Part shown: one piece after another, positions 305 to 56,755 of the stretch
Numbering within the stretch: the stretch's first letter is position 1
How the letters are laid out: each line of letters begins with the position of its first letter
Source: Chiloscyllium plagiosum
Lineage: Eukaryota
DNA: 64,000 nt
Direction: 5' to 3'
Assembly (NCBI RefSeq): GCF_004010195.1
Contig: NC_057718.1
Coordinates: forward strand, 66,473,351 to 66,537,350
Notes under the pieces: generated by a model
Seen by the model: the letters and a program-made list of their open reading frames with translations, nothing else
The model's database searches: none
Told to the model about the DNA's origin: nothing
Made by a program: the position numbers and the translations under genes

Positions 305-1685
305 AATACTGCAGTGGCTAGAAGAACACAGCAAGTCAAGCGGCATCAAGAGATAGAGAAGTCAATTTTTGGGTACAACCATTCTTCAGGACTGGTGATG
401 GGGGGGTGAGGGGAGTTGCAGATAAAGGGGGTAGGGCATGAGGGTTTTGGGTGGGGAAAGAGGTGGAGTAGCGAGGTAGTGATAGGTAAACACAGATAGC
501 TGGTACAATGTGGTTGGTTGATTGGAAGGAAGGAAGGGTCAGTAAGTGGACTGGAAGGGAGCGGGAGGGGCTGGAAAGGGAGTCAGGGATGGGAAGGGAG
601 GTTATTTGAAATTGGAGAACTCCATGAACCTCTGTCTCACCTGGAAGAACTATTTGGGGCCTTGGATGGAGGTGAGGGAATGATGTGCTGGCAGGTTTTG
701 CACCAGGAAGGAAATGTACCAGAGTGGTGGGGAGAGTGGTGCGAACCACGGTAGGGGCCCTTGTGAAAGGCAGAGGGGATGGAGAGGGGGAGATGTTCTT
801 GGTGGTGAGGTCTGGTTGGAATTGGCAGAAGTGTTTAACAATGATACGTTGGATGCAGAGACTGGTTGGGGTACAAGGTGAGGACAAAGGGGACCCTGTC
901 ATTATTATATTTGGAAGGGGGTGGGGTTTAGAGCAGTGGAGCATGAAATGGAGAGGCAGTGGAGGGCTGTCTGGATGATGGAGGGGGAAAGCACATTGTT
1001 CAAAATAGGTGGACATCTGGGATGCTTGGGAGTGGAATGTCTCCTTGTCCAAACAGATGAAATGGAAGAATTGGGAAAACAGGATGGAGTTCTTGGAGGA
1101 TAATGGGTGGGAAGAGGTGTAGTTTTTAGATTAGATTAGATTAGATTAGATTACTTACAGTGTGGAAACAGGCCCTTCGGCCCAACAAGTCCACACCGAC
1201 CCGCCGAAGCGCAACCCACCCATACCCCTACCTTTACCCCTTTAACCTAACACTACGGGCAATTTAGCATGGCCAATTCACCTGACCCGCACATCTTTGG
1301 ACTGTGGGAGGAAACCGGAGCACCCGGAGGAAACCCACGCAGACACGGGGAGAATGTGCAAACTCCACACAGTCAGTCGCCTGAGTCGGGAATTGAACCC
1401 GCTGTGAGGCAGCTGTGAGGCAGCAGTGCTAACCACTGGGCCACCGTGCCCTGCTGGTAGTGGTAGTCTGGTTCTGGTAGTTGTGGGAGTCTGAGAGTTT
1501 ATAATAAATGTATGTCTGTAGACTGTCACCAGAGATGGAAACAAAGAGGTCAAGAAAGGGGAGGGAGGTGTCCGAAATTGACTATGTGAATTTAAAGGCA
1601 GGGTGGAAGTTGTTGACAAAGTCAATGAACTGCTCTAGTTCAACCTGGGTGCAGGATGCAGCACTGACACCATCATTGACGTACA
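305..1685 (-). mobile_element. Decayed Penelope-like element (Neptune type), interrupted by an HE1 SINE at 1126-1451
   Basis: Minus-strand peptide FHSQASQMSTYF...TSIQGPK resembles the copy at 46.3-47.2 kb. A degenerate hammerhead-like terminus lies at ~360-390. Confidence 0.75.
1126..1451 (-). mobile_element. HE1-like tRNA-derived V-SINE, full length, with (TCTAA)n tail
   Basis: Reverse complement reads gggcacggtggcccagtggttagcactgctgcctcacagc...tgtggagtttgcacattctccccgtgtctgcgtgggtttcctcc...gggcctgtttccacactgtaag(taatc)n. Confidence 0.9.
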
Positions 1686-1695
1686 TAATCTTGGC

Positions 1696-1819
1696 GAAAG
1701 TGAGGACTGCAGATGCTGGAGATTAGAATCGAAAGTGTGGTGCTGGAAGGCAAAAGCCTGATGAAGGGCCTTTGCCCAAAAAGTCGATTCTCCTGCTCCT
1801 CGGATGCTGCCTGACCTGC
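1696..1819. mobile_element. Short Penelope-terminus insertion with internal inversion and a degenerate hammerhead
   Basis: 1696-1753 is the minus-strand 3' half and 1757-1819 the plus-strand 5' half (CTGATGAAGGGC-CTTT-GCCC) of the same terminal repeat seen at 43310 and 47138. Confidence 0.75.
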
Positions 1820-2480
1820 ACATGATTTAGTCTACTGCATTCGCTGCACTCAATGTGGTCTCAATAACATTGGGGAAATAAAGTGTAGATTGGGTGACCA
1901 CATTGCAGAACACCTACATTCTGACTTTAAAAGATCCTGTGCTTCCAGTTGCCTGTCACTTCACCGCACCACCCTCTTGCCTGGCCAACACCTCTGTCAA
2001 CACTTCTGTTTGTGGTGCTCCAGTAAAGTTCAGCTCAAGCTGGAAGAACAGCATCTCATTTCTCGCCTGGGGACCCTGCAGCCACCTTGACTCAATATTG
2101 AGTTCAACAACTTTAGGGTTTGAGCTCTCTGATGTCCTTAGTCCAAACCCCACAATCAGGCCTTGTTATCGTATTGTCCAATATTACATGCACCCCATTA
2201 TTAGCCTCTAACAGTCCCCATTAATATTTATTCACCACCTAGCTAGATCATTATCCATCTCTTTGTCTATCCAAATGTGTTCCCTCTTTGGTCTTTATCC
2301 TGACCTATCGTTTACTCCTTATCCCTTCCTCTCGCCCTATCCTCTGCATATAAACTGACATTTCCTTAGCCACTATCGGTTCTGAGGAAAGGTTACTCAA
2401 CCTGAAACACTTACTCTGATTTCTCTCCACAGATGCTGCCAGACCTGCTGAGCTTTTCCAGCAATTTTTGTATTCGTTTC
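1820..2480 (+). mobile_element. Penelope-like element 3' end (GIY-YIG endonuclease remnant plus 3' UTR)
   Basis: Translates as LVYCIRCTQCGLNNIGEIKCRLGDHIAEHL and KLEEQHLISRLGTLQP. Degenerate CTGAGGA...GAAAC at 2382-2408. Confidence 0.8.
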
Positions 2481-3570: not shown

Positions 3571-5259
3571 TCATTTACTGCAGCCACTGACATTTGAGAG
3601 CACCCAAATTCTACAATTGTGACACAAATTGCTATTTTAATGTGTTTTATCCACTGTTTAAGTAACTTATTCAAGTTATCCATTTCTTTTTCTGATATAT
3701 TATTAAACCTATCAAGATCACTTGTACTATTTAAACACTTAGGAATAGAACAGACTAATTAGCCTCATCCTCTGCAGTAGAATAAGCACCAACTACTCGC
3801 AGGTTCAAAGAAACGTAAAGGAGTTCATTCCTCTCCTAACTCCCTTACTCACTAAATTGCTAGCATTCTTTCCAAGTTGTCTCTAATTCTATACTACAGT
3901 TGAGCAATGGAAAACCAAATTTTAGTTGGTTGGCTAAACTTCCGCTTTAGCCCAGATGTTGTTACCTTTGTTTCTCTTCATACTGCGTTTATTATTTAAA
4001 GATTCAAAAGGACAAGATATGACTGTTCTAACACGTGACTCCTCACAACTGTAGTGTCTTTGCCAATTACAATAGTGTTCTTAGATTGATATGTCACCTT
4101 ATGCTTTGATTTCTGGTTTACTGTCCCATGTATCATGACATCAACTTTGAGTTTTTTAAAAAAAGTGTAATTGCCCTGCGTGCCTGAATTGGCCATTGAC
4201 CCTGATGCACGCAGATGAATTTGTGAAATGTTGGTGCTGTGGAAACCTTTAGAGGGCAAGGATGAATCTTTTGCTGTGTTGGTGGTAACTTAGTATAATT
4301 ACATGGGGAATAGGAGGATAATTTTAGAAGTTAATGTAGAAGGGTTTAATTCCACAATCTGTGAGTGGGATATGAATGGTACTTGGATAATTTACAATGC
4401 ATATAGAGTAATACGCAAAAGTAGGGTAAGTTTTTCAAGTATTGGGGTATTTTATCGGAAGTATGCATGTAATATAAAGGAGACACTGAATGGAATTTGT
4501 CATCTTTTGAGGCTTGTTGCTGGTTTCATTCGCTTCCAAGTGACAACCCTGCCTCTTTGTGTGTGCATTTCCCTTGCATTGCTTAGAGGTGACATTTGAA
4601 CCATTCAAAGCCTTAAAACAAATACTACTTTCCTTCAAAGGCACATTCAATCCAGAAATATCGTCCTGGTGTTTTTCAGGGTATGCATTATCTTTTAAGC
4701 TAGAATGCGCCTTTCGTTCTTGGACAAACTAATCAGTGTCTTGGTATAAAAGTAGAAAGTCTGAAAAATAATTTAGATTTGGCAAGATCTGTGGAGAGAA
4801 AAACAGAGTTAATGTTTTGAGTTCAATATAACTCTTTTATGGGGTGTTATCTCTTGTGTCCAGGCAAATACTTATTCCTTATTTAATAGCACTGCAAAAT
4901 CCAGATTATCTGGTCATTCTCTCACTGTTGTTCATGAGCTGCTTGTGTGCAAATTGGCTGTCACAGCAAACAACTTAATTGAACAAAACAGTTTATGACA
5001 TCCTGTGATTGAGAGAGGCACAAAGTAATTACAAGTCCCTTCTTCTCCTTTTTAATTACTCCTTTTTAAGTTTATATGTAACTTTCACATGTTTAAATCT
5101 GATCATCTTTAATCTTTCCCAGTTCTGATGAGAGTCATCAATCTGTGTTAATTCTGTTTCTGTAGAGAGTGTGGTGATAATCCAACAGTTAATGAAAGTT
5201 GCAATGTACATTAGGAAAAAGAATACAGTGGAATTAAATTTAAAGCTGTAAAACTAATG

Positions 5260-6090: not shown

Positions 6091-6410
6091 AAAACAACTT
6101 TGCTGTATTTGCAAGGACTTTCTGGCTTGTATCCTGAAAGTTAATGATAATGCTTCACATTTTAAAAAAAATATATTTTGTTTTAGTGTGGAATGTAACA
6201 GCAAGTTGAAACAGCTTACAAATATCTGCAACTCAATACAATAAATTTTTGTGGTTTGCAGTGTTGCTTTTTTTTTGTAATTAATAGGTTCTTTTGTGTA
6301 AGATTGTGCACTTAACTCCAAATATTTATCATTTTTGGAACTAAAGCACCAACTTTGGCACAAAATTTCTTTGGTAAAAAAGATTTACTTTCTTTGCTTC
6401 ACCCTTGAAG

Positions 6411-6503
6411 GTTTTGCAGTTGCTGGACAGGTTGATGGAAAGCAGCACAACAATTCTTTGTTTGTGAGTGATGTTCTTCCTGATGGTCTCGCCTATAGAG
6501 AAG
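6411..6503 (+). CDS. TIAM2: TIAM2 coding exon, first half of PDZ domain (GFAVAGQVDGKQHNNSLFVSDVLPDGLAYREG)
   Basis: Pyrimidine-rich acceptor ...acccttgaag|, donor |gtacga, 93 nt, phase 1-1. The peptide resembles the recalled TIAM2 PDZ sequence (FISDVLPDGLAYGEG) and splices in frame to the next exon. Confidence 0.9.
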
Positions 6504-6789
6504 GTACGATTACTTTTAAAAAGATCTTATGCTCGCTGAAGTAGCGGGTTTTAGCATTAATGTAACACTCCATTTTACCATCCAGCGTCTGAACCTTTAA
6601 TGGTTATTCTGCAATCCTTGCAAAAATAACAGTTTGGTTTCTGAGTGCGGACAATATTGCTCTTGACTGGTTTTCTCATAGTGGAGTAGTATGCAGAAGC
6701 TCATTGTCCAGGTTTCTATATACAGTACATATTGGTTGAGCATCAAAGAGCTATATATAGATGCTGCACACTCATTGTTTAGGTAATTT

Positions 6790-7610: not shown

Positions 7611-8150
7611 GAGATAGTATTAGGGTCTAGGGGCATGTTGGTAATGTCCCTACCTCTACACAGAATGTAAACGACCCATATGTCCAGAGTAGATGGGACG
7701 ATGTTTCTGAATGGGTTGATTAAAACTATTTATAAATAAAGTAGCTTGTTCAATCAACTTTTCCTGTGAGGGTACCTAGTTCAGGCGATACCATATAGTG
7801 TTGTGTCAGGCACCTGATATTCCTGTGGCATTTAAATGGGACATTAGGAAACTTAACAAAAATACGTTTCAACAAATCGGTTCCATGTGCTTGTGTAAAA
7901 TTTCTGTTTGCTATTTTAACAAACTATAGTGTTTAATGATTTATGACACATTTATATGAGCTAATAATCCTGGTAAAATTAATGATTTCATTCATCTAGA
8001 TTAAATGTTTTTTTAAAGCTGAGGAGGGAAATTTGAAGTAAAAGTAGAATATGGTAGTTCAGCTAACATTCAGAAGTTGAGGGTAAATTTGCAGCTTGGG
8101 AGAGGAGACTTCCTTTAACATTGTTACTGTTCCTGTTTTCTTTCCGTTAG

Positions 8151-8396
8151 GTGCAAGAGTGGGAGATGAGATCTTGATTATAAATGGTGAAATGGTTGCT
8201 AATCTACACCATGCACAAATTGAATCGTTATTTGCAGAGAACCACTTAATACTGACTATCAGAAGGTTCTCATTAGATTGCAACCAAATGCCAACAGACT
8301 ACAGCGATTCACTAAACCACATGATGTCCCCGCCTCCTTCTGACCAATCAAAATTGCTGGTTGAGTTTATTGACAACCTTCTTCCTGTCCCTTCCG
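8151..8396 (+). CDS. TIAM2: TIAM2 coding exon, second half of PDZ domain plus proline-rich linker (ARVGDEILIINGE...PPPSDQSKLLVEFIDNL)
   Basis: Acceptor tttccgttag|, donor |gtgagt, 246 nt, phase 1-1. Contains the PDZ GD-I--ING motif and resembles recalled TIAM2 PPPNQSQLLEEFLDN. Confidence 0.92.
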
Positions 8397-9899: not shown

Positions 9900-10770
9900 C
9901 ATAAACAATAAGACGTAGGGGCAGAAGTAGGCCACTTAACCCATTGACTCTGCTCTACCATTCAATGGGATCATGGCTGATCTGATAATCTTTAACTCCA
10001 GTTTATTTCCATAACCCTTGATTTCCTTAATGATTTGTTTTAGATTGCATATACTTAACAGCTCGGCCCCAACAGCCCTCCTTAGTAAAGAAAGTCATAA
10101 ATCGATACTTTCTGCAAGAATAATGTCTTTCTTATCTCTGTTTCAAATCAACCACTTTTATTTTGAGATTATGCCCTCTAGTCCCAGACTCCCCCCATTG
10201 GGGAGCAACCTTTGAGTCTGCCATGTCAAGCCTCCTGATAATCCTATATGTTCCAATAAGATCACTCATTTTTTTCTAAAGTTGAAACTTTATTGCTGGA
10301 ACAGCACAGCAGGTCAGGCAGCATCCAGGGAACAGGAGATTCGACGTTACGGGCACAGGCCCTTCTTCAGGAATGAGAAGAAGGGCCTGTGCCCGAAACG
10401 TCGAATCTCCTGTTCCCTGGATGCTGCCTGACCTGCTGTGCTGTTCCAGCAATAAAGTTTCAACTTTGATCTCCAGCATCTGCAGACCTCACTTTCTCCA
10501 TTTTTTTCTAAACTCTAATGAGCACAAACCTAAGTGACACAACCTTCCCTCAAGAAAATGCCTTTATATTTGCAATCAACTCAGTGAATCGCTGTACTTT
10601 CTCCAGTGCCAGTTTGTCTTTCTTTGCCTAAGGGAACCAAAATGATCAAAGTATTCCTGCTGTGGTCTGATTAGTAACTTACACAGTTTTAACAAGTTGT
10701 TCCTATTGTTATACTCCATTCTATCTGAAGTAAAGGTCAACATTCAACAATTTATTTTCCCTATTGCCCC
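9900..10770 (-). mobile_element. Old CR1 LINE 3' end, interrupted at 10281-10498
   Basis: ggggcagaagtaggccac...ccattcaatgggatcatggctgatctg and ccaaaatgatcaaagtattcctgctgtggtct are typical minus-strand CR1 3' sequences. Confidence 0.65.
10281..10498. mobile_element. Palindromic Penelope-derived mini-element with two hammerhead-like motifs and a 14-bp TSD
   Basis: Near-perfect inverted repeat, ~10281-10367 versus ~10378-10464. Flanked by CATTTTTTTCTAAA at 10267-10280 and 10499-10512. Confidence 0.88.
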
Positions 10771-14309: not shown

Positions 14310-15297
14310 ATGGGTTTTGAGAGGGTTTGTAGCTCAGGTTGAGGTTCTGGGTGTAGGTTTGCTCGCTGAGCTGGAAGATTCGTTTTCAGACATTGCATCG
14401 CCATACGAGGTAGCATCTTCAGTGAGCCTCTGGATGAAGCACTGGTGGTGTAGCCTGCTTTCTATTTATATGTTTGGGTTTGTGATGTAATTTCCTACGA
14501 TGTCATTTCCTGTTCTCTGCAGGGGATGGTAAATGGGACCCAGAGTTCCGGTTGGAATGCCATGCTTCTAGGAATTCTCATGCAGTCTCTGTTTGGCTCG
14601 TCTTAGGATGGATGTGTTGTCCCAGTCGAAGTGGTGTCCTTTCTCATCCATATGTAAGGATAGTAGTAAGAGGGGGTCATGTCTTTTTGTGGCTAGTTGA
14701 TGTTCATGTATTCTGGTAGCTAATTTTCTGCCTGTTTTGACAATGTAGTGTTTGTTACAGTCCTTGCAAGGTATTTTGTAAATGACATTAGTTTTGCTTG
14801 TTTGTAGAGGATCTTTCAAGTTCATTAGCTGCTGTTTTAGTGTGCTGGTGAGTTTGTGGGCTACCATGATGCCAAGAGGTCTGAGTAGTCTGGCAGTCAT
14901 TTCTGAGATGTGTTTGATGTAGGGGAGAGTGGCTAGACTTTCTGGGTGTCTTTTGTCTGCTTGTTTAGGTTTGTTGCTGAGAAATTGGCGAATTGTGTTC
15001 TCTGGGTATCTGTTGTTTTTGAATATACAGTATAGGTGATCTTATTCTGCTCTGCGTAGTTCCTCTGTGCTGCAGTGTGGTGGCTCTTTGAAATAATGTT
15101 CTAATGCAGCTTCGTTTGTGGATGTTGGGATGATTGCTTCTGTAGTTCAGTATTTGGTCCGTGTGTGTTGTTTTCCTGTAGATGCTCGTTTGAAGTTTCC
15201 CATCAACTGTTCGCTATACTGTGACATCTAGGAATGGCAGTTTGTTGTTTTTTTTCTCCTCTTTAGTGAGTTTTATGCCAGTAAGGGTATTACTGAT
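14310..15297 (-). mobile_element. Penelope-like element, Poseidon type (RT C-terminus, GIY-YIG, 3' UTR)
   Basis: ORF 14568-14900 reads NVIYKIPCKDCNKHYIVKTGRKLATRIHEH. A degenerate hammerhead lies at ~14386-14425. Confidence 0.88.
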
Positions 15298-15307
15298 TTG
15301 GGTATTA

Positions 15308-15579
15308 TACATCAAAGACATCTAGGAAATGACTGCCAGGCTACTCAGACCCCTTGGCATCATGGTAGCCCACAAATCCACCAACACATTAAAACAGCAG
15401 CTAATGAACTTGAAAGACCTTATACAGACAACAAGCAAAATTAATGTCATTTACAAGATACCTTGCAAGAACTGTAACAAACACTACATTGGACAAACAG
15501 GCAGAAAACTAGCCACCAGGACACACGAACATCAACTAGCCACAAAAAGGCATTACCCACTCTCAATAGTATCCTTGCA
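15308..15579 (+). mobile_element. Inverted partial copy of the same Poseidon-type Penelope element (GIY-YIG)
   Basis: ORF 15329-15610 reads VIYKIPCKNCNKHYIGQTGRKLATRTHEH and is the reverse-complement match of ~14651-14921. Confidence 0.88.
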
Positions 15580-17769: not shown

Positions 17770-19545
17770 GTTTTGCAATCGACTTTATTCATTACTATAA
17801 GATGTTGCTTAAAACTTTCACAAAGGTCTTGTCAAGTCAACCTCATATCTCTTTTGTGTGACAGTATATTTGTTTAATGTTTTTGTGAAGCATGTTAGGA
17901 TGCTTTGCTCTGTTAAAGGAGGTGTATGAATGTATCTTGTTATTTACCCAAGTAGCAGTTTGCCCAAAGGCCAATTAGCTCATATAAAATTGTTGCCACT
18001 GCTTTTGGATAAAATCTTAATAGGTTTACAAATGTGTAGCCTCAGACTTGCTTTGCCTTTTTATATCTTCAGGGCATGGCACATAGCACTCTTCCAGTAA
18101 AATGAATCAACTGCAACTTTTTTAATCATATAAAGTTTACATCTGATCCAATTTTAAACTTATCTAAATTTCCCTCAAATTGTTTATAGTTCTTTAGGGA
18201 TTTAACTATCCTTTATATAACTGAATTAAGCACCACATTATAATTAAAATATTTGATTACTCTCTCAAGTGTATTTACACATAAGTAAATAAGATGGTGC
18301 AACATTGATATTAAGTGTAGATCTAATGCTGACTGGAGCTGTTCTGTCTTGGAACTGGAGTAAAGGGGCTTTCATCAAAACAAAATACTTTATTATGTTA
18401 TGAGTAAAAATGTTATCCTGCTCAGAAAATTCATGCATGGCAGTGTACCTCAATAAGTAAACGGTACTGGAGTTGAAATGTAAAAATACTTATCTTTTCT
18501 ATATTTTATAACTCTTTGGGCACTATCTTTGACTGTTCATACACTATAATAACTGAATCATTGCAAACAGTAATGTGTGAGCAGCAGAAATGTAGTTATA
18601 CTGTTACTCATACTATTAATGATTTTTACAAGAAAGTGCACATAACTTCTGAAAACCCTTCTCTTTCTAATAGTTTATCAATGCAATAGGATGTTTCCCT
18701 TTAGCAACATAAGCATTTTAAAAGTTCTGACTAGAGTAATTGTATAGCAGAATGGATTAAAATATCTAATTTGCCACAAATGGGAGTGAAGCCTAAATGA
18801 CGCATCTCCAATGTTCCTGCTGTTTAACCAACTCAAAACCCTGACATCTGCTGGCATTGGATGCGAGACATTTGCAGTGTAAGATATCTCTCAAGTAAAT
18901 TTCAGTCAGATTTAGGAGGTAGTTGCTGAAATGAATTTTATGATAAGTATCAAATGCTGCAGAGAAATAAATTTTGAATTGGGTGCAGAAGCAAGTATTG
19001 CAGAGTAATTACTTAGTATTTAGCACAATGTCAGAAAAATAATTAATCCAGCACCCTTGAAGCAGGATGGTATTAGCAGTTTCTGGCTGTCTCTTTGAAA
19101 AAGAAACCAAGGAAAAGTTCAAATGTTTAGATTGTTGTCTGATTGCAGGTTTCTGTTTATGATATTTCTGAGTTTAGTTACTGATTAGTGTTTTCACTAG
19201 ATTCTTGGTGTCATTTACAGCCAGGTAGGTCTATGGCAATACATTGAACAATTGATGTGTTTGTCGCCTTGCATCTGAGTAAATGAACGATTTGTTCTTT
19301 TATTTTTTCTTTCAAAAGCCCTGTGACATGTATCATCTAACTTCACGTTTTTTAAAAAATTCTTAAAAGTCTACCTCTAAATGTGACTTAGTTGATATTG
19401 TATTCTGAATTGCAAGTGAAAAGCATTTTTAAATTGGAATTCAACAGGACATTGTAGCTTTGAATTGAATCAGTAATAACACTACAACAAGAGAGCTTTA
19501 CACACTGTTTTACAAAGAAAATGGTTAAATTTTTGTAAATTTCAG

Positions 19546-19646
19546 ATTTCACTAGTGTGCCAGATGTGCCAGCTCTGACAAGAAGTATCCCAACAGACTT
19601 TGTGGAGTCATTGTATCAGGATGAAAATACTGAATCATTTTTAAAG
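19546..19646 (+). CDS. TIAM2: TIAM2 coding exon, PDZ-DH linker (DFTSVPDVPALTRSIPTDFVESLYQDENTESFLK)
   Basis: Acceptor tttcag|, consensus donor AAG|gtaagt, 101 nt, phase 1-0, bridging the phases of both neighbouring exons. Resembles recalled human DFSNVPDI...EQTFR. Too short to appear in the ORF track. Confidence 0.85.
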
Positions 19647-22089: not shown

Positions 22090-22344
22090 GGACGGCACGG
22101 TGGCACAGTGGTTAGTACTGTTGCCTCACAGCACCAGAGACTTGGGTTCAATTCCCGCCTCAGGTGACTGACTGTGTGGAGTTTGCACATCCTCCCCGTG
22201 TCTGCGTGGCTGCCTGACCTGCTGTGCTGTTCCAGCAATAAAGTTTCAACAATGGGTCTGGGTGAGTTGTGCTTCGGCGGGTCGGTGTGGACTTGTTGGG
22301 CCGAAGGGCCTGTTTCCACACTGTAAGTAATCTAATCTAATCTA
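22090..22344 (+). mobile_element. Chimeric HE1 SINE with its middle replaced by 42 bp of Penelope terminus
   Basis: HE1 head at 22090-22208; 22209-22250 is identical to 10423-10464; HE1 tail with (TCTAA)n at 22251-22344. Confidence 0.85.
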
Positions 22345-33880: not shown

Positions 33881-34029
33881 ACCTAAACTTCCAGTTTAAG
33901 ACTAGAAGATGCAAGGTCCAGCAGCAGGAAGATTTTCCAACATTATTGCCCAGCAGGAGTGTTTCCCTCCTTTCTATCAATTGGATTCTCTCCTCTCCTG
34001 CCCTCTCCTCTCTCTCCCCCTCCTCCCGC

Positions 34030-35700: not shown

Positions 35701-38639
35701 GTCAGTTTAGCTCCATGATGTGTTGCTCAAGGCAACTATTTCTTATGCTTTAGTAGATCCTTTCTAGTCCTCTGCTCCAGCAAATATAATGTTTTTAGTA
35801 CTTAATATCTTTCAGCCAGATTCAAAGTTCCAATTCAGGGAATATGTGTATGTGTATATGTTTTCTATGTATGGATTAACTCAGTTGTTTTGTTGACACC
35901 ACCATAGCATTGTTCATATTATTATGTTTATTACCTATTTTTGGAAGTTGAAATAAAGTTATTGGTATACTAAATATGAGTTCCATTTTAAATTTATCTG
36001 CGGCTGTTTGTTATTGTTGTGACTTGTTTAATCTGCAGCTTTTGATGTCTTCAATGACAGATCAACAATATTGGGGTTTTCAGTTCAATATAGTAATCAT
36101 TGGAATCCACCTCTTAAGCATGCACATCCTTCACTTTAACGTTCTTGACAATGTCGCTTAAACCTTGTTGGTAGATTTTAAAACCTGAAAAGCTTTCAGG
36201 CTGACTGAAAGACTGCTGTAACTTGAGCTCTCTTCACACACCTGCTGAAGGCATAGAGAACACATAGTTTGGGAACAAGATATTAAGCTGTACTTAAATG
36301 ACAGACTAGCAATCCCTAAATAAGGAATATAGGCAGTTGTTAATACAAATTTGAGGTAATTAAAGGGATACACTCTCAAGTCTCCACCCTTCTTTAGAAC
36401 TGATTTTTTTGTGGTACTTCCAGCGAGGAAGCAATTTTCTAATTGCTGATGCACTGTTTGGAATCGGGGAATGGAGAAGTATCTGTTTCTTTATTTTGCA
36501 ACGTTGCTGAAATTTGCACCAGAAACTAAACTCTGCTGTCTTTTGGATGATTTTATATCTTGTACCAAGAGTACCGTTTCTACTGAACCATTCTACAAGG
36601 TATGTGTGAACCTTCTAGGATTACTAATGTTGAACCTGTTTTAGTTGGATTTGTTTCTAAGGTCTGCAGGGCAACAAGCTTTCTGATGATAGATTTTTAT
36701 CTGAAGATTATTTCAGATGGTTCTGCCAATCTGCCCAATTCTGCTGGTTGATACAATATGTTTACTATGTTGTGCATAATGATTCCTGCTAAGTAGGTTT
36801 GTTATATCCATTAATTTGTTCTGAATGTTCCAAGAAACAAATGGGTTGTATTTTTCATGTAGAACAAATCCTTTTTGTTTTCTCAGCAAAGGTGTGTTGA
36901 TTATCAGTACTTTCTAAGGAATGGCTTCAATGCTTCACATTGTGTTACGTGCTTTTTGCTTGACCTTGCCTCCCAAGCTTTATAATGAAAAGCAGTTGAG
37001 TATCCAAGGTATCAATTGACATTTTAAAGCTTTTGTTGACATCATAAATATTTTGTCAGGTATTCATCATAATTACATTGCATAGGCTGTAACATTGGCG
37101 AGTGAAAAACAAAATGTATGTGCAGTGAGTGGTTTTAGTTGTGCTGATGGAAAAGTGTATAATTTATCAAAGCACAAATCTTTCAGAAATTACAGTTCAA
37201 CCTATTAAATTAATCAAGGAATTTGGTATGAGAGCATTTTCAAACAGCGGTTTTTTTAAAATGGAAATTCATAGGATTCTGCCATCACTAGCCTGGACAG
37301 CATTAATTGCCCATCCCAAATTTGCCTTGAAAGGGTGGCTTGGAGGAGAACTTGCTGATGGTGATGTGCCCATTTATCTGCTGTCTTGTCCATGCCATAG
37401 CACCTTCTCACTGTTCCTTCACCATCATTGGATCAAAAGTTTTGAACTTCCTTTCTAACAGCACAATGGGTGAATCTACATCATAAATATTTTTGTCAGG
37501 TATTCATCATAATTACATTGCATAGGCTGTAACAGCATTACAGGAAGGCAGCCCACCATCTCCTTCCCAGTTCCACATGATATCCCCCATTCAGCACCAC
37601 AAAACCTTTGGAGACTTTGCACCTTTTGAGGATTCAGTGAACAGAGTTGGTATCCATGATTTATTTTATGAACCTTTGTGATTGACCATTGAGATAAGAG
37701 TTTGGTTGTATACTATGGCTGCTGTTGAATTTATATATGGAGTCATGAGATTTTAGTTTTATAAGACATTTTATGTCCATTTTAAAGACAGATTAGTTTT
37801 CTTTTCAAAATATATTGTAACTTTCACTGACAGTTGCCATCCTTTCTTCACAATTGGGTCAAAATTCTGGAATTTCTAATCTAACGGCACTGAGGGACCA
37901 ACATGATCACGTGAAGATTGTCCATTGTCACTGTTTGGCAACATTTAGGATTAGACAGTAAGTGCCAACCTTGCTGGAAAAGGTTACTACTTAAGCCGTT
38001 TCAAAATTTCTGATTTTTCTGCAATTCACTTTTATATGATGTATTAACAAGGTCAGGAGACTAATTTGTTGGAAGTGAACGGAAATAAGCATTCATTTAT
38101 ATAAGCTTTAGATACTACTATCTGTATGGTTAACTACTATCTGTGTGGTTGTCTCCAATCGGTCCAATCTAGAGAGTTCATGAGCCTTTCTTAAGCCAGA
38201 TGATGTACTGAGCACAGAACATGAGCATTGAAAGTCTCACAATAGAAAGTATTGCAAATGAAGAAAGTAGTAATTATACCTCCAAAAGCTTCAGTTTTAA
38301 ATGTCTGTTAATTGTAACAGGTATGGATGATTGAGTTTGAGTTCTATTACTTGAAGGAATGAGTTTAGAAGGTTCGGTAATAGTTGTAAAATTTCCTTCG
38401 TTCTAACCAGAACTACACAGCAGCCATAATTGAGATTTCAAATGTGAAATTCAGAAATTCAACATGTTGGTTACAGCAGCCATAATTGAGATTTCAAATG
38501 TGAAATTCACTGCTCACAACATGATCTCCTTTACATTGGCAAGGCCAAATGCAGACTAGTTAACTGCTTTACAGAACACCTCTGCTCTGTTTATAAAAAA
38601 ATGTCCCTGATCTCCCAGTTTCTTGCAATTTTAATACAT

Positions 38640-39021
38640 CACCTTGTTTTAATACTAATGTTCCAATGGAGCACAACACGAGCTCGAGGAACATCACCTT
38701 ATTTTCCACTTAAACACTTTTAGAGCTTTGATGACTCCATACTGAATTCAGTTACTTCAGCAAATTATGTGTGGTCCCATTTTTCTTACATTCTTCCCTC
38801 CCCCACACATCACATCGGCAATACTACACAGTCTTGACTTGTATACTGTTAGTAGAGAAGATTAATTCTCTGTCTTTTACGTCTTAATTTACACCCTTTT
38901 GCATCACTTATTTTTCATCCCCTTACTATTAACAACCTCGTCTTTTGAAATGGGCCTGCCTCTGAAAAGAGTTTTTAAAAATACATTTCCCAATATCTTT
39001 CAGTTCTGAAGAAGGCATACC
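38640..39021 (+). mobile_element. Old Penelope 3' end, continuing at 40197-40285 after an LTR insertion
   Basis: gagctcgaggaacatcaccttattttcc (ELEEHHLIF, compare KLEEQHLISR at ~2040). CTGAAGA at 39006 and the remainder of the terminus at 40197-40285. Confidence 0.7.
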
Positions 39022-40196
39022 TGTAGAAGTGTTTTCCCCTGATAAGGAATGAAAACTTAGGAGGCAGGCAGTACTCTGGCAAGTGGAAGTTTATTCACTC
39101 AAATCAACGAAAGCAGGGGGAGGGCCAAAGAATCTTCCCTGAATCTGGCTTTGGCATACAAACTCAGTTATTCCCTTAATCTTTACTCAGATCAGAAGGT
39201 AGATCAATGACACACTGTAAATTGTACAGTAAAAAGCAGTATATTTATACATTTCTGTATTACTGTGATCACATACAATGTGGTTACAGTCCTTCCCTCC
39301 TAACCTGGTAAAACATACTCAATGGTGGGCATCCTTAGGACCATCCTCAGGTTCTCATGATCTCATTGTTTGCCAGGCACTATAATCTTTCATCCTTGGG
39401 ATCTTCCTATGCATCCTGTTAATTCACATTTGAAAGCTAATTGCTACACTCCTTCAGGCCTCTCAGGCTGGCTTCATCTGTAGAGACAGTTTGAATTCTA
39501 TTGTGCTGTCTTTATCAAATTCGGTTATTCCTCTGTCCTAATTATGTATACAAAAATACAAACTAATTTTAACTAGTTGCTATAAGGTTTGTAATATTGA
39601 TTTTTGTTAGGAAGTCACTTATGAAGTGTAAGGTTAAATACAGCTTTTCCTACTCTTAGTACTTTGTGATTAATGGGCTGCAGCAATCTATTTCCTGAAG
39701 CTAATTTAACTTTCACATTTAGGTCTAAATGCCTTTTCTTTATTACAGTTGTTAAGCATTGGTTATATGTATTTTTTATGCTCAAAACTATCCTTATGAT
39801 TCCGTAGGGAATTTCTAACTGGAATCTATTGTAGAGTAATTCAAACAAATAATTACAAAATAACTATAACAGTTGTTCTGGTAACGATTTTAAGGTGGTG
39901 ACTGGATTTATCCTATGCTGGTGTTCATTCATTCACTGGGACAATTATGTTTCCATTAATGAGGGCTGAGATTAGTTGCTTGTCTATTTTACATACATGC
40001 CCTTATCAATACTGTTTCGAATGGTGAACTCATGGCCATGGTGTAATTTTGTTCAAAGATGTTGTCATTTTCTTTAATTAAAGGCTGGAACAGACTGTTA
40101 GTCTTACTTATCTCCTGTCAGCCATCTTGTATTTTTTGACCAAGGACAGGCTGTCTATTTGTTAGACATTTTGTTATAAACAGGGTCACCCCTACA
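39022..40196 (-). mobile_element. Solo LTR (~1175 bp) with 5-bp TSD ATACC
   Basis: Ends TGTAG...CTACA. ATACC at 39017-39021 and 40197-40201. AATAAA on the minus strand near 39091-39096 suggests orientation. Confidence 0.75.
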
Positions 40197-40579
40197 ATAC
40201 CAGACTTGAAGCATTCACTCTGTTTCTCTGTCTCCAGATACCGCCAGACTTGCTGAGTTTCTCCAACATTCTCTGTTTTCAGCATTTCTAGATCTGTATA
40301 AAATGTTAGACCACAACTGCTGTACCATATACAGTGCTAGTCATTGCTTTATAGAAAAGTATGATCTCACAAGAGAAATTACCATAGAACTTTAGAATGT
40401 TGCCTTAAAAGCCTGCATGTGAACTTGAGGTGCTATACCCTGTGGAGTTGCTGACGAAGATCTGAAAAGTGGGATGAAGCTGGATATATCGTTTTTGACT
40501 GAATGGTTTCCTTTTATTATCTGCCTTTGAATATGGGCCTTTTTCTATCCTGAAATCAGTGGGATGTTTGCACAACCAG

Positions 40580-43309: not shown

Positions 43310-43405
43310 CTGAAGAAGGGCTTATGCCCGAAACGTCGATTCTCCTGCTCCTTGGATGCTGCCTGACCTGCTACGCTTTTCCACCAACACATTTTTCAGC
43401 TCTGA
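43310..43405 (+). ncRNA. Minimal hammerhead-ribozyme motif in a ~95-bp Penelope-terminus fragment
   Basis: CTGAAGA-A-GGGC-TTAT-GCCC-GAAAC-GTC: conserved CUGANGA and GAAA boxes, stem II and a GUC triplet. The 5' arm of stem I is missing. Confidence 0.65.
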
Positions 43406-46119: not shown

Positions 46120-48225
46120 AAACTGGAAAAGTCATGTCTGACTAACTTGGAATTTTTTGAAGAGCTAATAAACAGGACTGATAGCAATGCTCTTGATGTA
46201 ATGGACTTCCAAAAAACATTTGAATAAAGCCACGCAATAGACTTGAGAAAAGTTATACCTCATGGAATATGAGGATCAGTAGCAACATGGTTACAAAATT
46301 TGCTTATGCCATCCCGTATTCCCAATTCCTCCGCCTCTGCCGTATCTGCTCCCAGGAGGACCAGTTCCACCACAGAACACACCAGATGGCCTCCTACTTT
46401 AGAGATCGCAATTTCCCTTCTCACGTGGTTAAAGATGCCCTCCCAACGCATCTCATCCACATCCCACACCTCCGCCCTCAGACCCCACCCCTCCAACCGT
46501 AACAAGGACAGAACACCCCAGTGCTCACCTTCCACCCCACCAACCTTCACATAAACCAAATCATCCGTTGACATTTCCGCCACCTCCAAAAAGACTCCAC
46601 CACCAGGGATATATTTCCCTCCCCACCCCTTTCCGCCTTCCGCAAAGACCGTTCCCTCTGTGACTACCTGGTCAGGTCCATGCCCTCCTACAACCCATCC
46701 TCCCATCCTGGCACCTTCCCCTGCCACCGCAGAAACTGTAAAACCTGCGCCCACACCTCCTCCCACACCTCTATCCAAGGCCCTAAAGGAGCCTTCCACA
46801 TCCATCAAAGTTTTACCTGCACATCCACTAATATCATTTATTGTATCCGTTGCTCCCGATGCAGTCTCCTCTACATTGGGGAGACTGGACNNNNNNNNNN
46901 NNNNNTTCCCCCACCTCACCCTAGTTCTAAACTTCCAGCTCAGCACTGTCCCCATGACTTGTCCGGACTTGTCCTACCTGCCTATCTCCTTTTCCACCTA
47001 TCCACTCCACCCTCTCATCCCTGACCGATCACCTTCATCCCCTCCTCCACTCACCTATTGTACTCTATGCTACTTTCTCCCCGCACCCACCCTCCTCTAG
47101 CTTATCTCTCCACCCTTCAGGCTCTCTGCCTTTATTCCTGATGAAGGGCTTTTGCCCGAAACATCGATTTTGCTGCTCCTTGGATGCTGCCTGAACTGCT
47201 GTGCTCTTCCAGCACCACTAATCCAGAATTAAGAATAGGAAGCAGAGTGTGATGGCTGATGGTGTTTTTGAGCTGCAGGAAGGTTTGTAGTGGTGTTCCC
47301 AGGCATCAGTGTTGGCCCCTGGCTTTTCTTGCTGTATATCAATGGTCTAGCTCATTAGGGGAGATTTTCCAAGTTTTACAGGTGATACAAAATTTGAGAG
47401 CACTGTAAACTGTGATGAGGATAATAAGACTTCCAAAAGGATATAGACAAGCTGGTGAAATGGACACATCAGTAGCAGATGAAGTTTGATGCAGTGAAGA
47501 GTGTGGTGACACATTTTGGTGCAAGTAATATAGAAAGACAGCATAAACTAAAGGATGCTACTCTATCGGGTGTGCGAGATCACAGACCTAGGTGAATATG
47601 TGCATAAGTCATTAAATTTGGCAGGACAGTTAAAGTGAGCTCTTACTAAAACGTGGTATTGTAGGTTTCACTGATAAGGGCACAGTATATAAGATATTTT
47701 GCTGAATATATATAAGACACTTTAGATGGAAGTTGGAGTATTGTATACAGTTCTTTGTGCCACCCTTTAGGAATGATATGACCCAATTGGAGAGAGTGCA
47801 ATGGAGGTTTACAAGAATGGTTTCAGGGATGAGAATCTTCAATAATGAGAATAGATTGAGAAAGTTAGGACAGTTTTCCTTGGAGAGGAAAAGGCTAAGA
47901 GGAAATTTGATCAAAGTTTTTTAAATTCATGACAATAGATAGGGGAGAAACTGTTCCTCCTCTTGCAAGGATGACAAGCCAGGTGGGAAATAAGGTTTCC
48001 ACACAGCAAGTAGTTAGCAGATGGAATGCGCTGTCAGGAACTGTGACAGAAGCAGGTTTGAGCTGAGGCTTTCAAGAGGATATTGGATAATCATTTAACA
48101 GAAACAATATGCAGGGATGTGGGTAAAGAATGGAGATTACCTATAATTTTAAATATATAGAGAGCTGGAGTAGACACATCAGACCAAATGGCTACTTTTT
48201 GTACCCAACAATTGTGATTCTGTGA
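46120..48225 (+). mobile_element. Old CR1 LINE interrupted by a Penelope element at ~46305-47229
   Basis: Peptides SCLTNL and MDFQKTF before the insertion, and EYCIQF...LERVQWRFTRM...RLRGNLIKVF after it. Confidence 0.8.
46305..47229 (+). mobile_element. Penelope-like element, Neptune type (RT C-terminus, Cys-rich linker, GIY-YIG, hammerhead terminus)
   Basis: Peptides AIPYSQFLRLCRICS and PCHRRNCKTC...FTCTSTNIIYCIRCSRCSLLYIGETG. CTGATGAAGGGCTTTTGCCCGAAAC at 47138-47162. Confidence 0.9.
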
Positions 48226-52939: not shown

Positions 52940-55930
52940 AATAGAAGGCAGTCATAGAGGTCCATTGACCCATTGTGTCCTTGCCAGTCATCAAACACCT
53001 ATCTTCTCTCATCCCATTTTCCATAGTTAGCCCATAGCCTTGCGTGAGATTTCAGTTCAAGTATTCATTTAAATACTTATTAAATTGTGAGGGTTCCTAC
53101 CTACTCCATCCTTTCAGACAGTGAATTCCGGATGTTTCCCCCATTCTGCTCAAATCCTCTATGTGAAACATTTTTCTGTCAAAGCCCCTGTCCCCTTACT
53201 GTAAATATGTTGTTGCTGGCTCACTCTCCCTAAATGGGAAATGTTTCTTCTCATCTACTCTCTTTGCTGCTCACAATTTTGCACGCTTCAACCCAGTTGT
53301 CCCTAACTCCCGTCGCCTTCTCTGCTATAAGGTAAGGAGTTTTAGCATATCTAGTCTTTCTCCATCACTGAAATGCTCCAGTCCAGGCACTATCCTAGTG
53401 AATCTCCTCTGCACCCTTCAACTCAATCACAACCAGCCGATAGAGCAATACTCAGAATATAACAAACTATTCCACCTCTGGCCTAACTAATGTTATCTTT
53501 ACTTCCACCATAACCACTCGCATCTTAATCAACGCTACCAATTTAGCTGTCTTCCAGTCCTCCTGGTACCTAATCTGTGGCCTGAGAGAATTTGAAAATT
53601 AAGGTTAGGGCTTCTGGAGTTTCTTCCATGTACCCCAAATTGCTGTGGGAGACATTTCATCTCGGGCTGGATATTTATCCACTTTTAAGCATGCTAAAAT
53701 TGCTTATATCATCTTCTTGATGCTAGATGATCCTTCTCTCTTGTGAACGCAGATGCAGTGTACTCATTTAAACCTCACCTAAGTCTTCCAGCTGAACACG
53801 CACACGGCCACTTTTTATCCCAAATGTTTTCTGTTACCCTCTTGACCCTACTTATAAAACATCTTTCAATTTTTCTTTATTTTACCTGCCAGTGTTTCTT
53901 TGCTCTCTAATTTGTTTTTTTAATGAACTCTTACACTTTTCTATACTCCGCTGATTTGAGCCCACAGTATCTGGCATAAGCTTTCCTTTTTACTTTTCTA
54001 ATTCCGAAGATCCCTTGACATCCAGGGTTCCTGGCACTTATTAGTACCACCTTTACAGGGTCATGTTAGCCCTATCCTCTCTGTTTCCTCTTGGAATAAC
54101 TCACACTCCTTTATAGATTTACTTACAAGTAGCTTCTAGTCCACTTTGGACAGACACAGTCTTATTGCAATCAGCTTTCCTCTATCTTTGTTCTTTTCCA
54201 TAACTATCTGAAATCATAATAAGTTATGATCACTATTATAGAAATGCTCCCACACTATGACTTCTACCACTTGCCTGACTAATTTCCCTAAAACTGGGAT
54301 TTTCTACATGCTGGCTTAAAAAAGTTCTCCTCAATATATTTTAAGAATTCCATCTCTTTCCCCTCTCCCCAGGCCCACAACTGTTTCTCTCTCTCAGTTT
54401 AAAATGGGGAAATTGAAACCCCCTAGTGTTGTTGTATTATTTTTATACTTTTGAGATTTGCTGACATCTGTTGTTTCTCTGCATGACTGCCAGGGTGTAT
54501 ACAGTACACTGAGCAATAAGATTGCCCTCTTTGTTTTTAAGACTGAGCCACATGGCTGCCTTTTGAGCAACTTTTCAAAGGTATGCTCCCTCCTTATTGT
54601 ACCAATTGACTCCTTGATCAATATTGTAACACCATTTCAGGCAGCATGGTGGCTCAGTGATTAGCACTGCTGCCTCACAGCGCCAGGGACCTGGGTTTGA
54701 ATCCAGCCTCCGGCAACTGTCTGTGTGGAGTTTGCACATTCTCCCTGTGTCTACGTGGGTTTCCTCCCACAATCCAATGATTGCAGGTTAGGAGAATCAG
54801 CCATGCTAAATTGCCGGTAGTATTTAGCGATGTGTAGGTTAGGTGGATTAGCCAGGCTTAAATATGGGATAATAGGGTAGGGGAATGGGTCTGGGTGCGT
54901 TACTCTTCAGGGGGTCAGCGTGAACATGTTGGGCTAAAGGGCCTGTTTCCACGCTGTAGGGATTCTGTGATTTCAACCTTTGCCACCATCCCGGTTGCCC
55001 CATCTGGCCTGAAGATTCTATACCCTGGAATGGTCCTGCTCTTCCCTTATCCATGCCTCATTGATAGCCATGACATCATATTTCCATGTATTAATCAACA
55101 CCCTTACTGTACCCATACTTGCAAGACTGCTTGTGTTAAACTGAATGTCATCTGGTCATGCCTTGCTCCTCTGTGTCTTAATTTAGCTATATGCACTGCC
55201 TGCCACACTTGGTCTTTCTTTTGAACTTGTCTGTGCATCTCCCATAGTGTTTCCCTACTTCATATCCCAACCATTTGTTAAATTGGTCTAAACTTCACAT
55301 GCAACTTATTGGACTTGTACAGGTCCACCTTCCTCAGAAAAAGATCCAGTAAACCAGGAATCTAAAGCTGTCCCTCCTGCACCCCTCTTCAGACTCGCAT
55401 ATTCAACTGCTCTATCTGTGTATTCCTGTACTCACTAGTATGTTGGTTTTGGAGGTCCTGCTTTTCAATCTGCTGCCGAGCTTCCAAAATTCTTGTTGTA
55501 GAACCTCATTTCTCTTTCTACCTATATCATCGGTTCCACATATCACTATCTCTGGCTGTTTACCTGCCTGCTTCAGTCTGCTTTACAGCTGTTCAGGGTC
55601 ACCCTTGACCCTGGCCCCAGAAATGCATTGTGCCATCCTGGAGTCACAGCTGCATCAGCAGAAAAGCTTGTCTGTATCCCTCATTATTCCATCTCCTACC
55701 ATTATTGCTGCCCCTCTTCTTCTATTCCCTTGTGCAGCTAGTGTCTATTATTGCTCTCATTGTTTTCCGAGACTCACACGTCCTTGAGTGAGATACACTC
55801 GGGTTTTCCTGACTACCTGCTTGCCTTCCTCCTCCTAACTGGTGGTCACTCAATGACTGCTCTTTCTTTTATTGTGGGGTGACCGCACATAAAATTGAGC
55901 TGTCTTCATAACTCTCAGCCTCATTCGGCT
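52940..55930 (-). mobile_element. Fragmented old CR1 LINE(s) (3' UTR, endonuclease, ORF1 remnants) with an HE1 insertion
   Basis: CR1 3' UTR pattern at 52940-53500, peptide LGGFNFP, and reverse similarity of 55200-55930 to the CR1 ORF1 at 57250-58050. Confidence 0.6.
54640..54972 (+). mobile_element. HE1-like SINE
   Basis: ggcagcatggtggctcagtgattagcactgctgcctcacagcgccagggacctgggtttgaatcc...gggcctgtttccacgctgtagggattctgtga. Confidence 0.9.
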
Positions 55931-56647
55931 CTGAACAAGAAGCTGACTTGAAACAGTTGCTGCTGAGTTTCTCTAGAATTTTATGTTCCAGATTTTGCTC
56001 TTATTTGAAAATTCTTTGCAGACTCTTTTGTTAATCCAATATCTTATTTGGAGCATCCTTTAATCTCTTGGATATCCTATGCAGAGGAACAGCACTTTGC
56101 TAACTCAGGTAATTGCCCGATAACATCTGGTGGACATGTAAATTTGTGCAGCTGCTTCTTTGAGTCAAGTCCTTTCTACTTTATGGTGTCCTGGCTTTCT
56201 GGATCAAGCCATATATTTCTAATTGGGAGAGGTAGTCTTTTCTTTTTGCGGTATCTTCGATATTTACACCAGATAGTTGTTTCTTCTCGATCACGTCCTG
56301 GATCTGTGGACACTGGTCTGGCTACTATGGAGTGACATGTATCTTATGTCCTTCTGCTTTCAGTGATGACAGGAGTGTTCTTCATATTTGACAATGTTAG
56401 TATAATTACAGATTTTACAATGTGATAGGCGATCTTTAATCCCTTTGAGATCTCTTATCACCACACCACTGAAGGAGCCCTGGTTGTATACCTTAGCAAT
56501 GCATAAGTGGCCTGGTGTATTCTTCTCAGTACAACTTCTGGAAGAGAAGCTGGAATAACTAGTCTTCTGTCATATGCTAGTCTGTGATTATGAATTTCGG
56601 TTAATGCTCAATACGTGTTCTGGGCCACCTTGCTAGGTATTTGTTTG

Positions 56648-56755
56648 GGAGAAAGTGAGGACTGCAAATGCTGGAGGGCAGAGTCAAAGAAGTGTGGTGC
56701 TGGAAAAGCACAGCTGGTCAGGCAGCATCCGAGGAGCAGGAGAGTTGATGATTTC
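56648..56755 (-). mobile_element. Short Penelope-terminus fragment (downstream-of-hammerhead part plus tail)
   Basis: Reverse complement of the ctcctgctcctcggatgctgcctgacc...ctccagcat.tgcagtcctcactttctcc module. Confidence 0.75.

What the first reader, a model, noticed from the sequence alone, without database searches (positions are those of the whole stretch)
360..56755. Recurrent minimal hammerhead-ribozyme motifs in at least three Penelope subfamilies
Seen in the sequence: CTGA(A/T/G)GA-stem II-GAAAC-like motifs at ~360-389(-), 1758(+), 2382(+), 5125(+, partial), 10340-10410(both strands), ~14386-14422(-), 39006(+, split by an LTR), 43310(+) and 47138(+). Each lies in a Penelope 3' terminus or an isolated terminus fragment. 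Stem II differs by subfamily (GGGC-N4-GCCC versus longer stems). Stem III is reduced to GAAAC-GTC with no loop, giving only the palindrome ACGT. Inference: a monomer cannot fold, so cleavage would need dimerisation through a 4-bp ACGU duplex, which is extremely minimal. Several motifs lie on the TIAM2 sense strand.
Basis: partly seen in the sequence, partly recalled or inferred. Interest (0 to 1): 0.7.

Follow-up and report, generated by a model that had tools for sequence, protein, structure and literature searches.

The report
Decayed Penelope hammerhead motifs in shark
These motifs are damaged leftover copies of the tiny self-cutting RNA already described in the end repeats of Penelope-type jumping genes, and they likely do nothing to the TIAM2 gene whose introns they sit in.

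Summary
All nine cited sites carry a hammerhead-like remnant. Core plus stem II is well above chance: 7 sites against a mean of 0.74 in shuffles, with 0 of 100 shuffles reaching 7. Five lie 125-279 nt behind Penelope (PLE) protein remnants; the rest are terminus stubs. They fall into about four terminus families. The 'extremely minimal' loop-less GAAAC-GUC stem III is the published norm for PLE minimal hammerheads: 13 of 56 representatives in Cervera and De la Pena 2014 Fig. S3 read exactly so. No copy in the window meets the full descriptor. Across 24,033-29,243 DNA contigs, family A shows CpG decay even at catalytic G12 (10-14% of depth), so inserted copies look neutral. The host is a bamboo-shark-type genome and TIAM2 runs on +. 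The only workable sense-strand pair (47138 with 43310) is predicted 7 kcal/mol less stable than the separate folds. The scan has reported this motif class many times elsewhere in this genome. Verdict: a shark member of a known kind, low interest.

The parts
360..393 (-). min-HHR remnant, family D (stem I AGUC/GACU intact; box 2 decayed, one base lost)
   Evidence: 257 nt behind PLE protein match ending at 646
646..1689 (-). PLE ORF remnant, interrupted by a SINE-like insert at about 1137-1450
   Evidence: tblastn with PLE proteins; repeats D3/D15/I6/I10
1700..1819 (.). family A head-to-head stub: inverted 3' tail (1700-1757, -) plus direct arm with min-HHR remnant 1758-1785 (+; G12 lost, no stem I)
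1779..2120 (+). PLE endonuclease-region remnant
2378..2415 (+). min-HHR remnant, family B (5-bp stem II; U16.1 lost)
   Evidence: 262 nt behind the PLE match
   Evidence: read by hand from the stretch printed and alignment A1
5121..5155 (+). partial family B remnant (box 1 present, box 2 deleted)
6401..6529 (+). TIAM2 exon (approximate, tblastn range)
8150..8395 (+). TIAM2 exon, 100% identical over 82 aa to a named Chiloscyllium plagiosum protein
10267..10512 (.). fold-back insertion of two family A termini, 91-bp arms, 14-bp target duplication, 32-nt tail on the + arm only
   Evidence: predicted hairpin -189 kcal/mol
10339..10374 (-). min-HHR, family A: stems I (AUUC/GAAU) and II and ACGU intact, A13 changed to U; antisense to TIAM2
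10377..10406 (+). min-HHR, family A, 5'-truncated inside box 1 (no C3-U4, no stem I 5' strand)
14386..14425 (-). min-HHR remnant, family C (3-bp stem I UCA/UGA, 6-bp stem II with 2 broken pairs, box 2 GCAA)
   Evidence: 164 nt behind PLE match
14586..15315 (-). PLE RT-thumb/endonuclease remnant without the zinc-finger linker (Penelope/Poseidon-like); an inverted piece lies at 15209-15592(+)
   Evidence: (GIY-YIG E 0.0011, below the curated cut-off)
19542..19694 (+). TIAM2 exon (approximate, tblastn range)
22209..22250 (+). family A 3' stub without the hammerhead, inside a SINE-like repeat
38505..38727 (+). old PLE endonuclease remnant
39002..39021 (+). 5' half of a family B min-HHR remnant
39022..40196 (.). 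1175-bp insert with TG...CA ends and 5-bp target duplication, likely a solo LTR, splitting the motif
40202..40219 (+). 3' half of the split family B remnant (box 2 reads GAAG)
43310..43341 (+). min-HHR, family A: core, stem II and ACGU intact; copy begins at C3, so the 5' strand of stem I is missing
46269..47013 (+). PLE RT-thumb/linker/endonuclease remnant with CxxC linker (Neptune-like)
47134..47169 (+). min-HHR, family A: core and stem II intact, palindrome broken at 47163, weak stem I
56660..56757 (-). family A terminus stub beginning near box 2; no box 1 or stem II
63011..63190 (+). TIAM2 exon

Best explanation
These are decayed genomic copies of the minimal type I hammerhead carried in the terminal repeat (pLTR) of several Penelope-like retrotransposon families, and they are likely inert where they now sit. 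Shown: the motif lies at a fixed place behind PLE protein remnants and in short terminus stubs, and each copy has a lesion. Inferred from published PLE work: on the RNA of an active, tandemly arranged parent element the motif would cut after GUC/GUU, weakly, as a pair of hammerheads joined through the self-complementary ACGU and probably helped by the element's own protein. Inferred: reverse transcription starts about 55-100 nt downstream of the motif and usually stops early or folds back, which would scatter short motif-bearing stubs through introns on both strands. After insertion these stubs lose their CpG sites, including catalytic G12, like any methylated repeat.
For: Five of 7 PLE protein-match segments in the window are followed 125-279 nt later on the same strand by CTGAnGA; the other 2 are an inverted internal piece and a copy cut off before its ORF end. 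A 300-nt stretch holds that box in 275 of 2474 trials (11%). The box 1 / stem II / box 2 / NN-UH layout recurs in families A and C, whose termini give no BLAST match to each other and whose ORFs differ in the zinc-finger linker (PMC8557442 passages). Stem I differs by paired changes between families: AUUC/GAAU (10370), AGUC/GACU (389), UCA/UGA (14422); stem II GGGC/GCCC, AGGUU/AACCU, GAGUU/AACUC. The layout equals the published consensus. In the DNA runs, family A variants at 5% or more fall in loop II, the 3' flank and the three CpG sites; none falls in box 1 or elsewhere in stem II. G12>A reaches 14.0% and 9.9% of depth in the two DNA runs, similar to the non-core G1.1>A at 9.7% and 7.7%. 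Fold-back structure with a tail on one arm matches the described PLE insertion pattern.
Against: No cleavage was measured here. Covariation rests on about 9 decayed copies read by hand, and MAFFT did not keep two of them in register, so no formal statistic was run. The absence of common variants in box 1 could reflect recent amplification and the 80% likeness filter rather than selection; stem I positions and several flank positions were just as invariant. Contig depth fractions are rough. Pfam gave no hit above cut-off for the PLE remnants; PLE identity rests on homologs carrying RT and PF26215 domains and one GIY-YIG homolog.
Confidence: 0.87

Rival explanations
1. Sense-strand copies cut the TIAM2 pre-mRNA. 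The 47138 copy would supply the enzyme strand and the 43310 copy the substrate strand, 3.8 kb apart in one 43-kb intron, possibly helped by PLE protein.
For: Both are on + in the same intron. 47138 has box 1, stem II and GAAAC intact, and 43310 has GUC and the 3' strand of stem I. PLE protein enabled cleavage in Anolis in vitro.
Against: The active hybrid is predicted at -12.8 kcal/mol against -20.0 for the two separate folds, with 2 bp in stem I and 2 bp in stem III (nearest-neighbour model only). Even the best copy (10370-) gives an active homodimer of -13.1 against -14.2 for two monomers and -18.3 for an inactive dimer. Family-wide RNA reads lie on both strands (275 vs 441 at the motif) with no pile-up of ends, though that library type is a weak test of ends.
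Confidence: 0.04
2. The stubs are a separate non-autonomous SINE-like or retrozyme family that spreads by its own hammerhead-processed RNA.
For: Short pieces are more abundant than long ones: summed depth rises about 3.7-fold (X2) and RNA read depth about 5-fold (X21) at 47134, where about 1,100 contigs per DNA run have loose 5' ends. The 10267-10512 unit has its own 14-bp duplication. A 2026 preprint derives animal retrozymes from PLE termini and found them in its one chondrichthyan.
Against: 5' ends in the window are staggered (C3, G5, about -6, near G12, far downstream), none starts at the cut site, no tandem units are seen, and the same sequence follows PLE ORF remnants. 5' truncation and inversion are standard for PLEs.
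Confidence: 0.07
3. The motifs are chance matches or non-catalytic hairpins.
For: A bare CTGAnGA occurs 49 times on both strands; exact-core counts alone are only mildly enriched (3 of 100 shuffles reach 5); Rfam finds no hammerhead; no copy is complete.
Against: Core plus stem II exceeds all 100 shuffles, the position behind PLE ORFs is fixed, and the layout matches a published, experimentally tested class.
Confidence: 0.02

Closest known systems
Minimal type I hammerheads (min-HHR) in pLTRs of metazoan PLEs (Cervera and De la Pena 2014, PMC4209133; read: parts 1-2 of 4 of the text, parts 1-2 of 3 of the supplementary PDF)
   Same: CUGANGA, one bulged base, stem II opening G-C, GAAA, a self-complementary pair, UH, short stem I; no loop III; several families per genome; mostly single motifs in truncated PLEs; pairs 100-700 bp apart on opposite strands. 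29 of 56 Fig. S3 rows have CG at the palindrome and 13 read GAAAC-GUC (my hand count). The Acropora row has nearly the same GGGC-N4 stem II as family A; the Clonorchis (2) row has the same loop II hexamer as family C.
   Different: No cartilaginous fish among the 56 rows. All window copies carry lesions. Some family A copies appear to have a weak stem I (2 bp, a U-U pair, 1 bp).
Anolis Poseidon (PAc) hammerhead (PMC11167929; passages only)
   Same: Vertebrate PLE terminus hammerhead with stems I and II; genomic copies end at two nearby sites downstream (family A loose 3' ends at 47218 and 47229); no RNA-seq ends at the cut site.
   Different: PAc was tested in vitro (protein-assisted cleavage, not needed for insertion); nothing here was assayed. 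Families A, B and D appear Neptune-like.
Small PLE hammerheads that cleave as dimers (Lunse, Weinberg and Breaker, RNA Biol; not held; known here only from its title and the review PMC6765202, passages)
   Different: Its text and organism list could not be read, so I cannot say whether shark sequences are in it.
Animal non-LTR retrozymes (bioRxiv 10.64898/2026.07.22.740005; part 1 of 5 and passages)
   Same: Type I hammerheads related to PLE pLTRs; reported in one chondrichthyan.
   Different: Retrozymes are tandem arrays with a hammerhead in each unit; the window holds dispersed single stubs and one fold-back pair.

Membership tests
PLE min-HHR (Cervera and De la Pena 2014) | Box 1 CUGANGA followed by one bulged base | tested here: met
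Intact at 9 of 11 hammerhead-bearing sites; absent at 10377(+) and 4834(-).
PLE min-HHR (Cervera and De la Pena 2014) | Stem II with G10.1-C11.1 closing pair | tested here: met
   4 bp G-C-closed in all 5 family A copies; 5 bp in 2382 (A-U closing) and 4834; broken pairs in 389 and 14422.
PLE min-HHR (Cervera and De la Pena 2014) | GAAA box, self-complementary 15.2/16.2 pair and UH cleavage site without loop III | tested here: met
   Complete in 43310 and 10377 and as majority letters of family A; damaged in the other copies.
PLE min-HHR (Cervera and De la Pena 2014) | Short stem I closing a type I topology | tested here: met
   4 bp in 10370 and 389, 3 bp in 14422; 2 bp plus mismatch in 47138; missing by truncation in 43310, 1758, 10377.
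PLE min-HHR (Cervera and De la Pena 2014) | Located in the terminal repeat behind a PLE RT/GIY-YIG ORF | tested here: met
   5 of 7 PLE protein segments followed by the motif at 125-279 nt; stubs share the same downstream sequence.
PLE min-HHR (Cervera and De la Pena 2014) | All features together in one genomic copy (competent ribozyme) | tested here: not met
   0 hits to the full descriptor in the window.
PLE min-HHR (Cervera and De la Pena 2014) | Compensatory changes within and between consensus families | tested here: inconclusive
   Paired differences between families read by hand; no within-family covariation visible in the per-site table; no genome or extra loci for a formal test.
PLE min-HHR (Cervera and De la Pena 2014) | Self-cleavage as dimer or with protein help | not testable with these tools
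   Only folding energies were computed.
Rfam hammerhead families | Match to a covariance model | tested here: not met
   No hammerhead family among 11 matches at E up to 10.
Non-LTR retrozyme | Tandem units each with a complete hammerhead | tested here: not met
   Family A copies on + are 3.8-33 kb apart; only one fold-back pair.

The most novel reading that the evidence does not exclude
The very many intronic minimal-hammerhead stubs of this shark act together: half-broken copies complement each other in trans (enzyme strand from one, substrate strand from another), or are switched on by PLE protein, and so cut host pre-mRNAs such as TIAM2 when the parent elements are active. That would be a genome-wide, retrotransposon-controlled layer of pre-mRNA cleavage.
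Probability: 0.04. Interest if true: 0.7.

Novelty: new member of a known kind. Interest (0 to 1): 0.12.

Why it matters
As it stands it only extends a class described in 2014 to a bamboo-shark-type genome, where it is very abundant (24,033-29,243 DNA contigs per run align to one 60-nt stretch). The role of PLE hammerheads in vivo is still called unclear in the literature (PMC8557442, passages), and such a copy-rich genome is good material for that question, but the decayed copies in this window do not bear on it. It would matter only if intronic copies were shown to cut host transcripts.

Tried and rejected
Rfam scan at E up to 10: no hammerhead; the weak U6 match at 25490-25579 (21 bits, cut-off 44) lies in a LINE-like repeat and was rejected as chance. 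No whole genome is held, so no genome-wide consensi, copy count or end map. Exact-pattern scans of metagenome and viral contigs: 0 matches each. Pfam on 7 and then 150 stop-to-stop frames (of 416 frames of 50 aa or more): PLE remnants unrecognised apart from one GIY-YIG hit below cut-off. Run search: no RNA holder listed on record; one of two raw-read RNA runs (X22) laid 0 reads, so it is no test. No pile-up of read ends at the predicted cut site, a weak negative for a polyA single-cell library; only the best-supported loose ends were shown. MAFFT put 14422 and part of 389 out of register, so pair counting on it was not run. The 4848(-) row was in the wrong register and was dropped. Loose regex hits at 40451, 43686, 50179, 58381, 59065, 61648 (+) and 32535, 21663, 17342, 7442 (-), and 9789, 36683 (+), were rejected: none had both a stem II of 4 bp or more with an exact core, and none gave a terminus-homology hit. 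55930(+) (E 0.029) is unresolved. The earlier-scan idea that stubs begin with an extra cap-derived G at the motif's first base fits 43310 only; 1758 is ambiguous and the other stubs examined do not fit, too few to judge. Three paper searches listed no paper on hammerheads of bamboo-shark PLEs; subscription papers, Repbase/Dfam and bioRxiv supplements were not visible, so this is not proof of absence.
Full report
Setting. The window is 39% G+C with 938 N. The frame at 8186-8398(+) is 100% identical to a named Chiloscyllium plagiosum TIAM2 protein. With that protein, tblastn places four exons on the + strand at about 6401-6529, 8150-8395, 19542-19694 and 63011-63190. So the host is a bamboo-shark-type genome and + is the TIAM2 sense strand. 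All cited motifs lie outside these exon matches. No whole genome was available.

Observation. Box 1 (CTGAnGA) is intact at 389(-), 1758, 2382, 5125, 10370(-), 14422(-), 39006, 43310 and 47138. The + copy in the 10340-10410 pair begins at G5. A descriptor scan against 100 dinucleotide shuffles gave: exact core 5 vs mean 1.35 (3 of 100 reach it); exact core with stem II 2 vs 0.02 (0 of 100); core with one mismatch and stem II 7 vs 0.74 (0 of 100); full descriptor 0. The set is real, but no copy is complete. Lesions: 10370 has A13 changed; 1758 and 389 have lost G12; 14422 has GCAA and two broken stem II pairs; 2382 has lost U16.1; 47138 has CA for CG; 43310 starts at C3 and lacks half of stem I; 5125 lacks box 2. 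39006 is split by a 1175-bp TG...CA insert with a 5-bp duplication, and its box 2 reads GAAG. One more remnant lies at about 4807-4840(-). Rfam finds no hammerhead.

Link to Penelope elements. Two window frames retrieved shark, fluke, coral and metagenomic proteins with RT and PF26215 domains, one with GIY-YIG. Seventeen of those 56 proteins, used in tblastn, mark seven PLE segments. Five are followed on the same strand by the motif at 125-279 nt. The other two are an inverted internal piece (15209-15592) and a copy cut off before its ORF end (49949-50837). A random 300-nt stretch holds box 1 in 275 of 2474 trials. The remaining motifs are short stubs sharing the same downstream sequence, with no convincing PLE protein match within 1.2 kb. 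The ORF at 46269-47013 has the CxxC linker and the one at 14586-15315 lacks it, which by PMC8557442 (passages) separates Neptune/Nematis from Penelope/Poseidon. I count four terminus families: A (GGGC-N4-GCCC), B (5-bp stem II; 2382, 4834, 5125, 39006), C (14422) and D (389). D may be a distant branch of A or B (both profiles hit it).

Covariation and conservation. Between families, stem I reads AUUC/GAAU, AGUC/GACU and UCA/UGA, and stem II reads GGGC/GCCC, AGGUU/AACCU and GAGUU/AACUC. These are paired differences, but in few decayed copies read by hand, with no formal test. For family A, 60 nt around 47138 were laid on four public runs: 29,243 and 24,033 contigs in two DNA runs, 2,109 contigs in a possible RNA run, and 716 raw RNA reads. 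In the DNA runs, variants at 5% or more sit in loop II, the 3' flank and the three CpG sites. G is the majority letter at 47163, so ACGT is the family state. G12>A reaches 14.0% and 9.9% of depth, against 9.7% and 7.7% for the non-core G1.1>A. This is what neutral methyl-CpG decay predicts (established knowledge) and argues that inserted copies are not kept active. Caveat: stem I and some flank positions were as invariant as box 1, N7 varied in the longer lay but not at 5% in the shorter one, and contig depths are rough. The test therefore does not show that the core is more conserved than its flanks.

Comparison with the literature. Cervera and De la Pena 2014 (PMC4209133; parts 1-2 of 4; supplement parts 1-2 of 3) defined exactly this motif: a type I hammerhead with no helix III or loop 3, a palindromic 15.2-16.2 pair, expected to work as a dimer, in PLE terminal repeats from cnidarians to fish, coelacanth, Xenopus and reptiles, mostly as single motifs in truncated copies. 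Monomers did not cut; dimers and trimers cut weakly. By my hand count, 29 of 56 Fig. S3 rows have CG at the palindrome and 13 read GAAAC-GUC; none is from a cartilaginous fish. A review (PMC6765202, passages) cites a second study on dimer cleavage that I could not read. In Anolis the PLE hammerhead cut only with PLE protein, was not needed for insertion in vitro, and no RNA-seq ends were found at the cut site (PMC11167929, passages).

Mechanism. Shown: position, family structure, lesions, abundance, both-strand presence in RNA reads. Inferred from the papers: on parent-element RNA the motif cuts weakly, via pairing of two copies and probably with protein help. Inferred: 5' truncation and fold-back during reverse transcription leave stubs. 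The 10267-10512 unit has 91-bp arms, a 14-bp duplication and a 32-nt tail on one arm, as described for PLE insertions. Family A shows two clusters of loose 3' ends, 47218 and 47229, reminiscent of the two initiation sites in Anolis.

Effect on TIAM2. On the sense strand, 1758, 2382, 5125 and 39006 have broken cores, and 10377 is truncated and predicted to be locked in a -189 kcal/mol hairpin. The only conceivable pair is the 47138 enzyme half with the 43310 substrate half. Its active form is predicted at -12.8 kcal/mol against -20.0 for the separate folds. The best single copy (10370, antisense) gives -13.1 for the active homodimer, -14.2 for two monomers and -18.3 for an inactive dimer; the bare ACGU duplex is -1.7. 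These energies ignore tertiary contacts and proteins. No pile-up of RNA ends was seen, which is a weak negative.

Earlier scan notes. The scan has 2,410 notes in this genome matching 'hammerhead Penelope', and a neighbouring window reached the same reading. Several notes report U6 RNA copies joined at the predicted cut site and stubs starting with an extra G. I found no U6 junction here, the extra G fits one stub clearly, and I could not test either genome-wide; they are leads only.

Verdict. Observation partly confirmed (real, but all copies damaged); interpretation right in kind and already published. New member of a known kind; interest 0.12. The novel reading, that broken intronic copies complement each other or are activated by PLE protein to cut host pre-mRNA, is not excluded but gets about 4%.

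Noticed in passing
window 10267-10512: Fold-back insertion of two family A termini with 91-bp arms, a 14-bp target duplication and a 32-nt tail on one arm only; noted separately by the scan.
   Followed up: partly
window 39022-40196: 1175-bp insert with TG...CA ends and a 5-bp duplication, likely a solo LTR, inside stem II of an old Penelope hammerhead; class not determined.
   Followed up: partly
window 14386-15592: Poseidon-like element with a 5' inversion; its protein is 52% identical to an Opisthorchis protein and its hammerhead loop II hexamer equals that of the Clonorchis (2) row in the 2014 Fig. S3. Could reflect a slowly changing clade or old horizontal transfer; not tested.
   Followed up: no
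window 47134 (runs X2, X14, X21): About 1,100 contigs per DNA run and 327 RNA reads have loose 5' ends exactly at the first base of stem I. May be a subfamily boundary or a preferred 5' truncation point.
   Followed up: partly
window 22095-22344: A SINE-like repeat holds a 42-nt family A terminus stub (22209-22250) in place of its middle part.
   Followed up: no
window 300-2480: Nested PLE pieces: a minus-strand ORF remnant with a SINE-like insert, a head-to-head family A stub, and a plus-strand endonuclease remnant with its own terminus; three hammerhead remnants within 2.1 kb.
   Followed up: partly
window 33806-33887: Hairpin of about 30-bp arms next to the long N gap; weak miRNA-family matches far below cut-off.
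   Followed up: no
window 24291-25386, 16116-16953, 48838-49719: Several LINE-like RT fragments, one with 191-nt inverted arms.
   Followed up: no
proteins P0007, P0010, P0037: Annotated shark and skate host protein isoforms (MAP3K7, CUEDC2, one unnamed) contain PLE-derived stretches; exonisation or annotation error.
   Followed up: no
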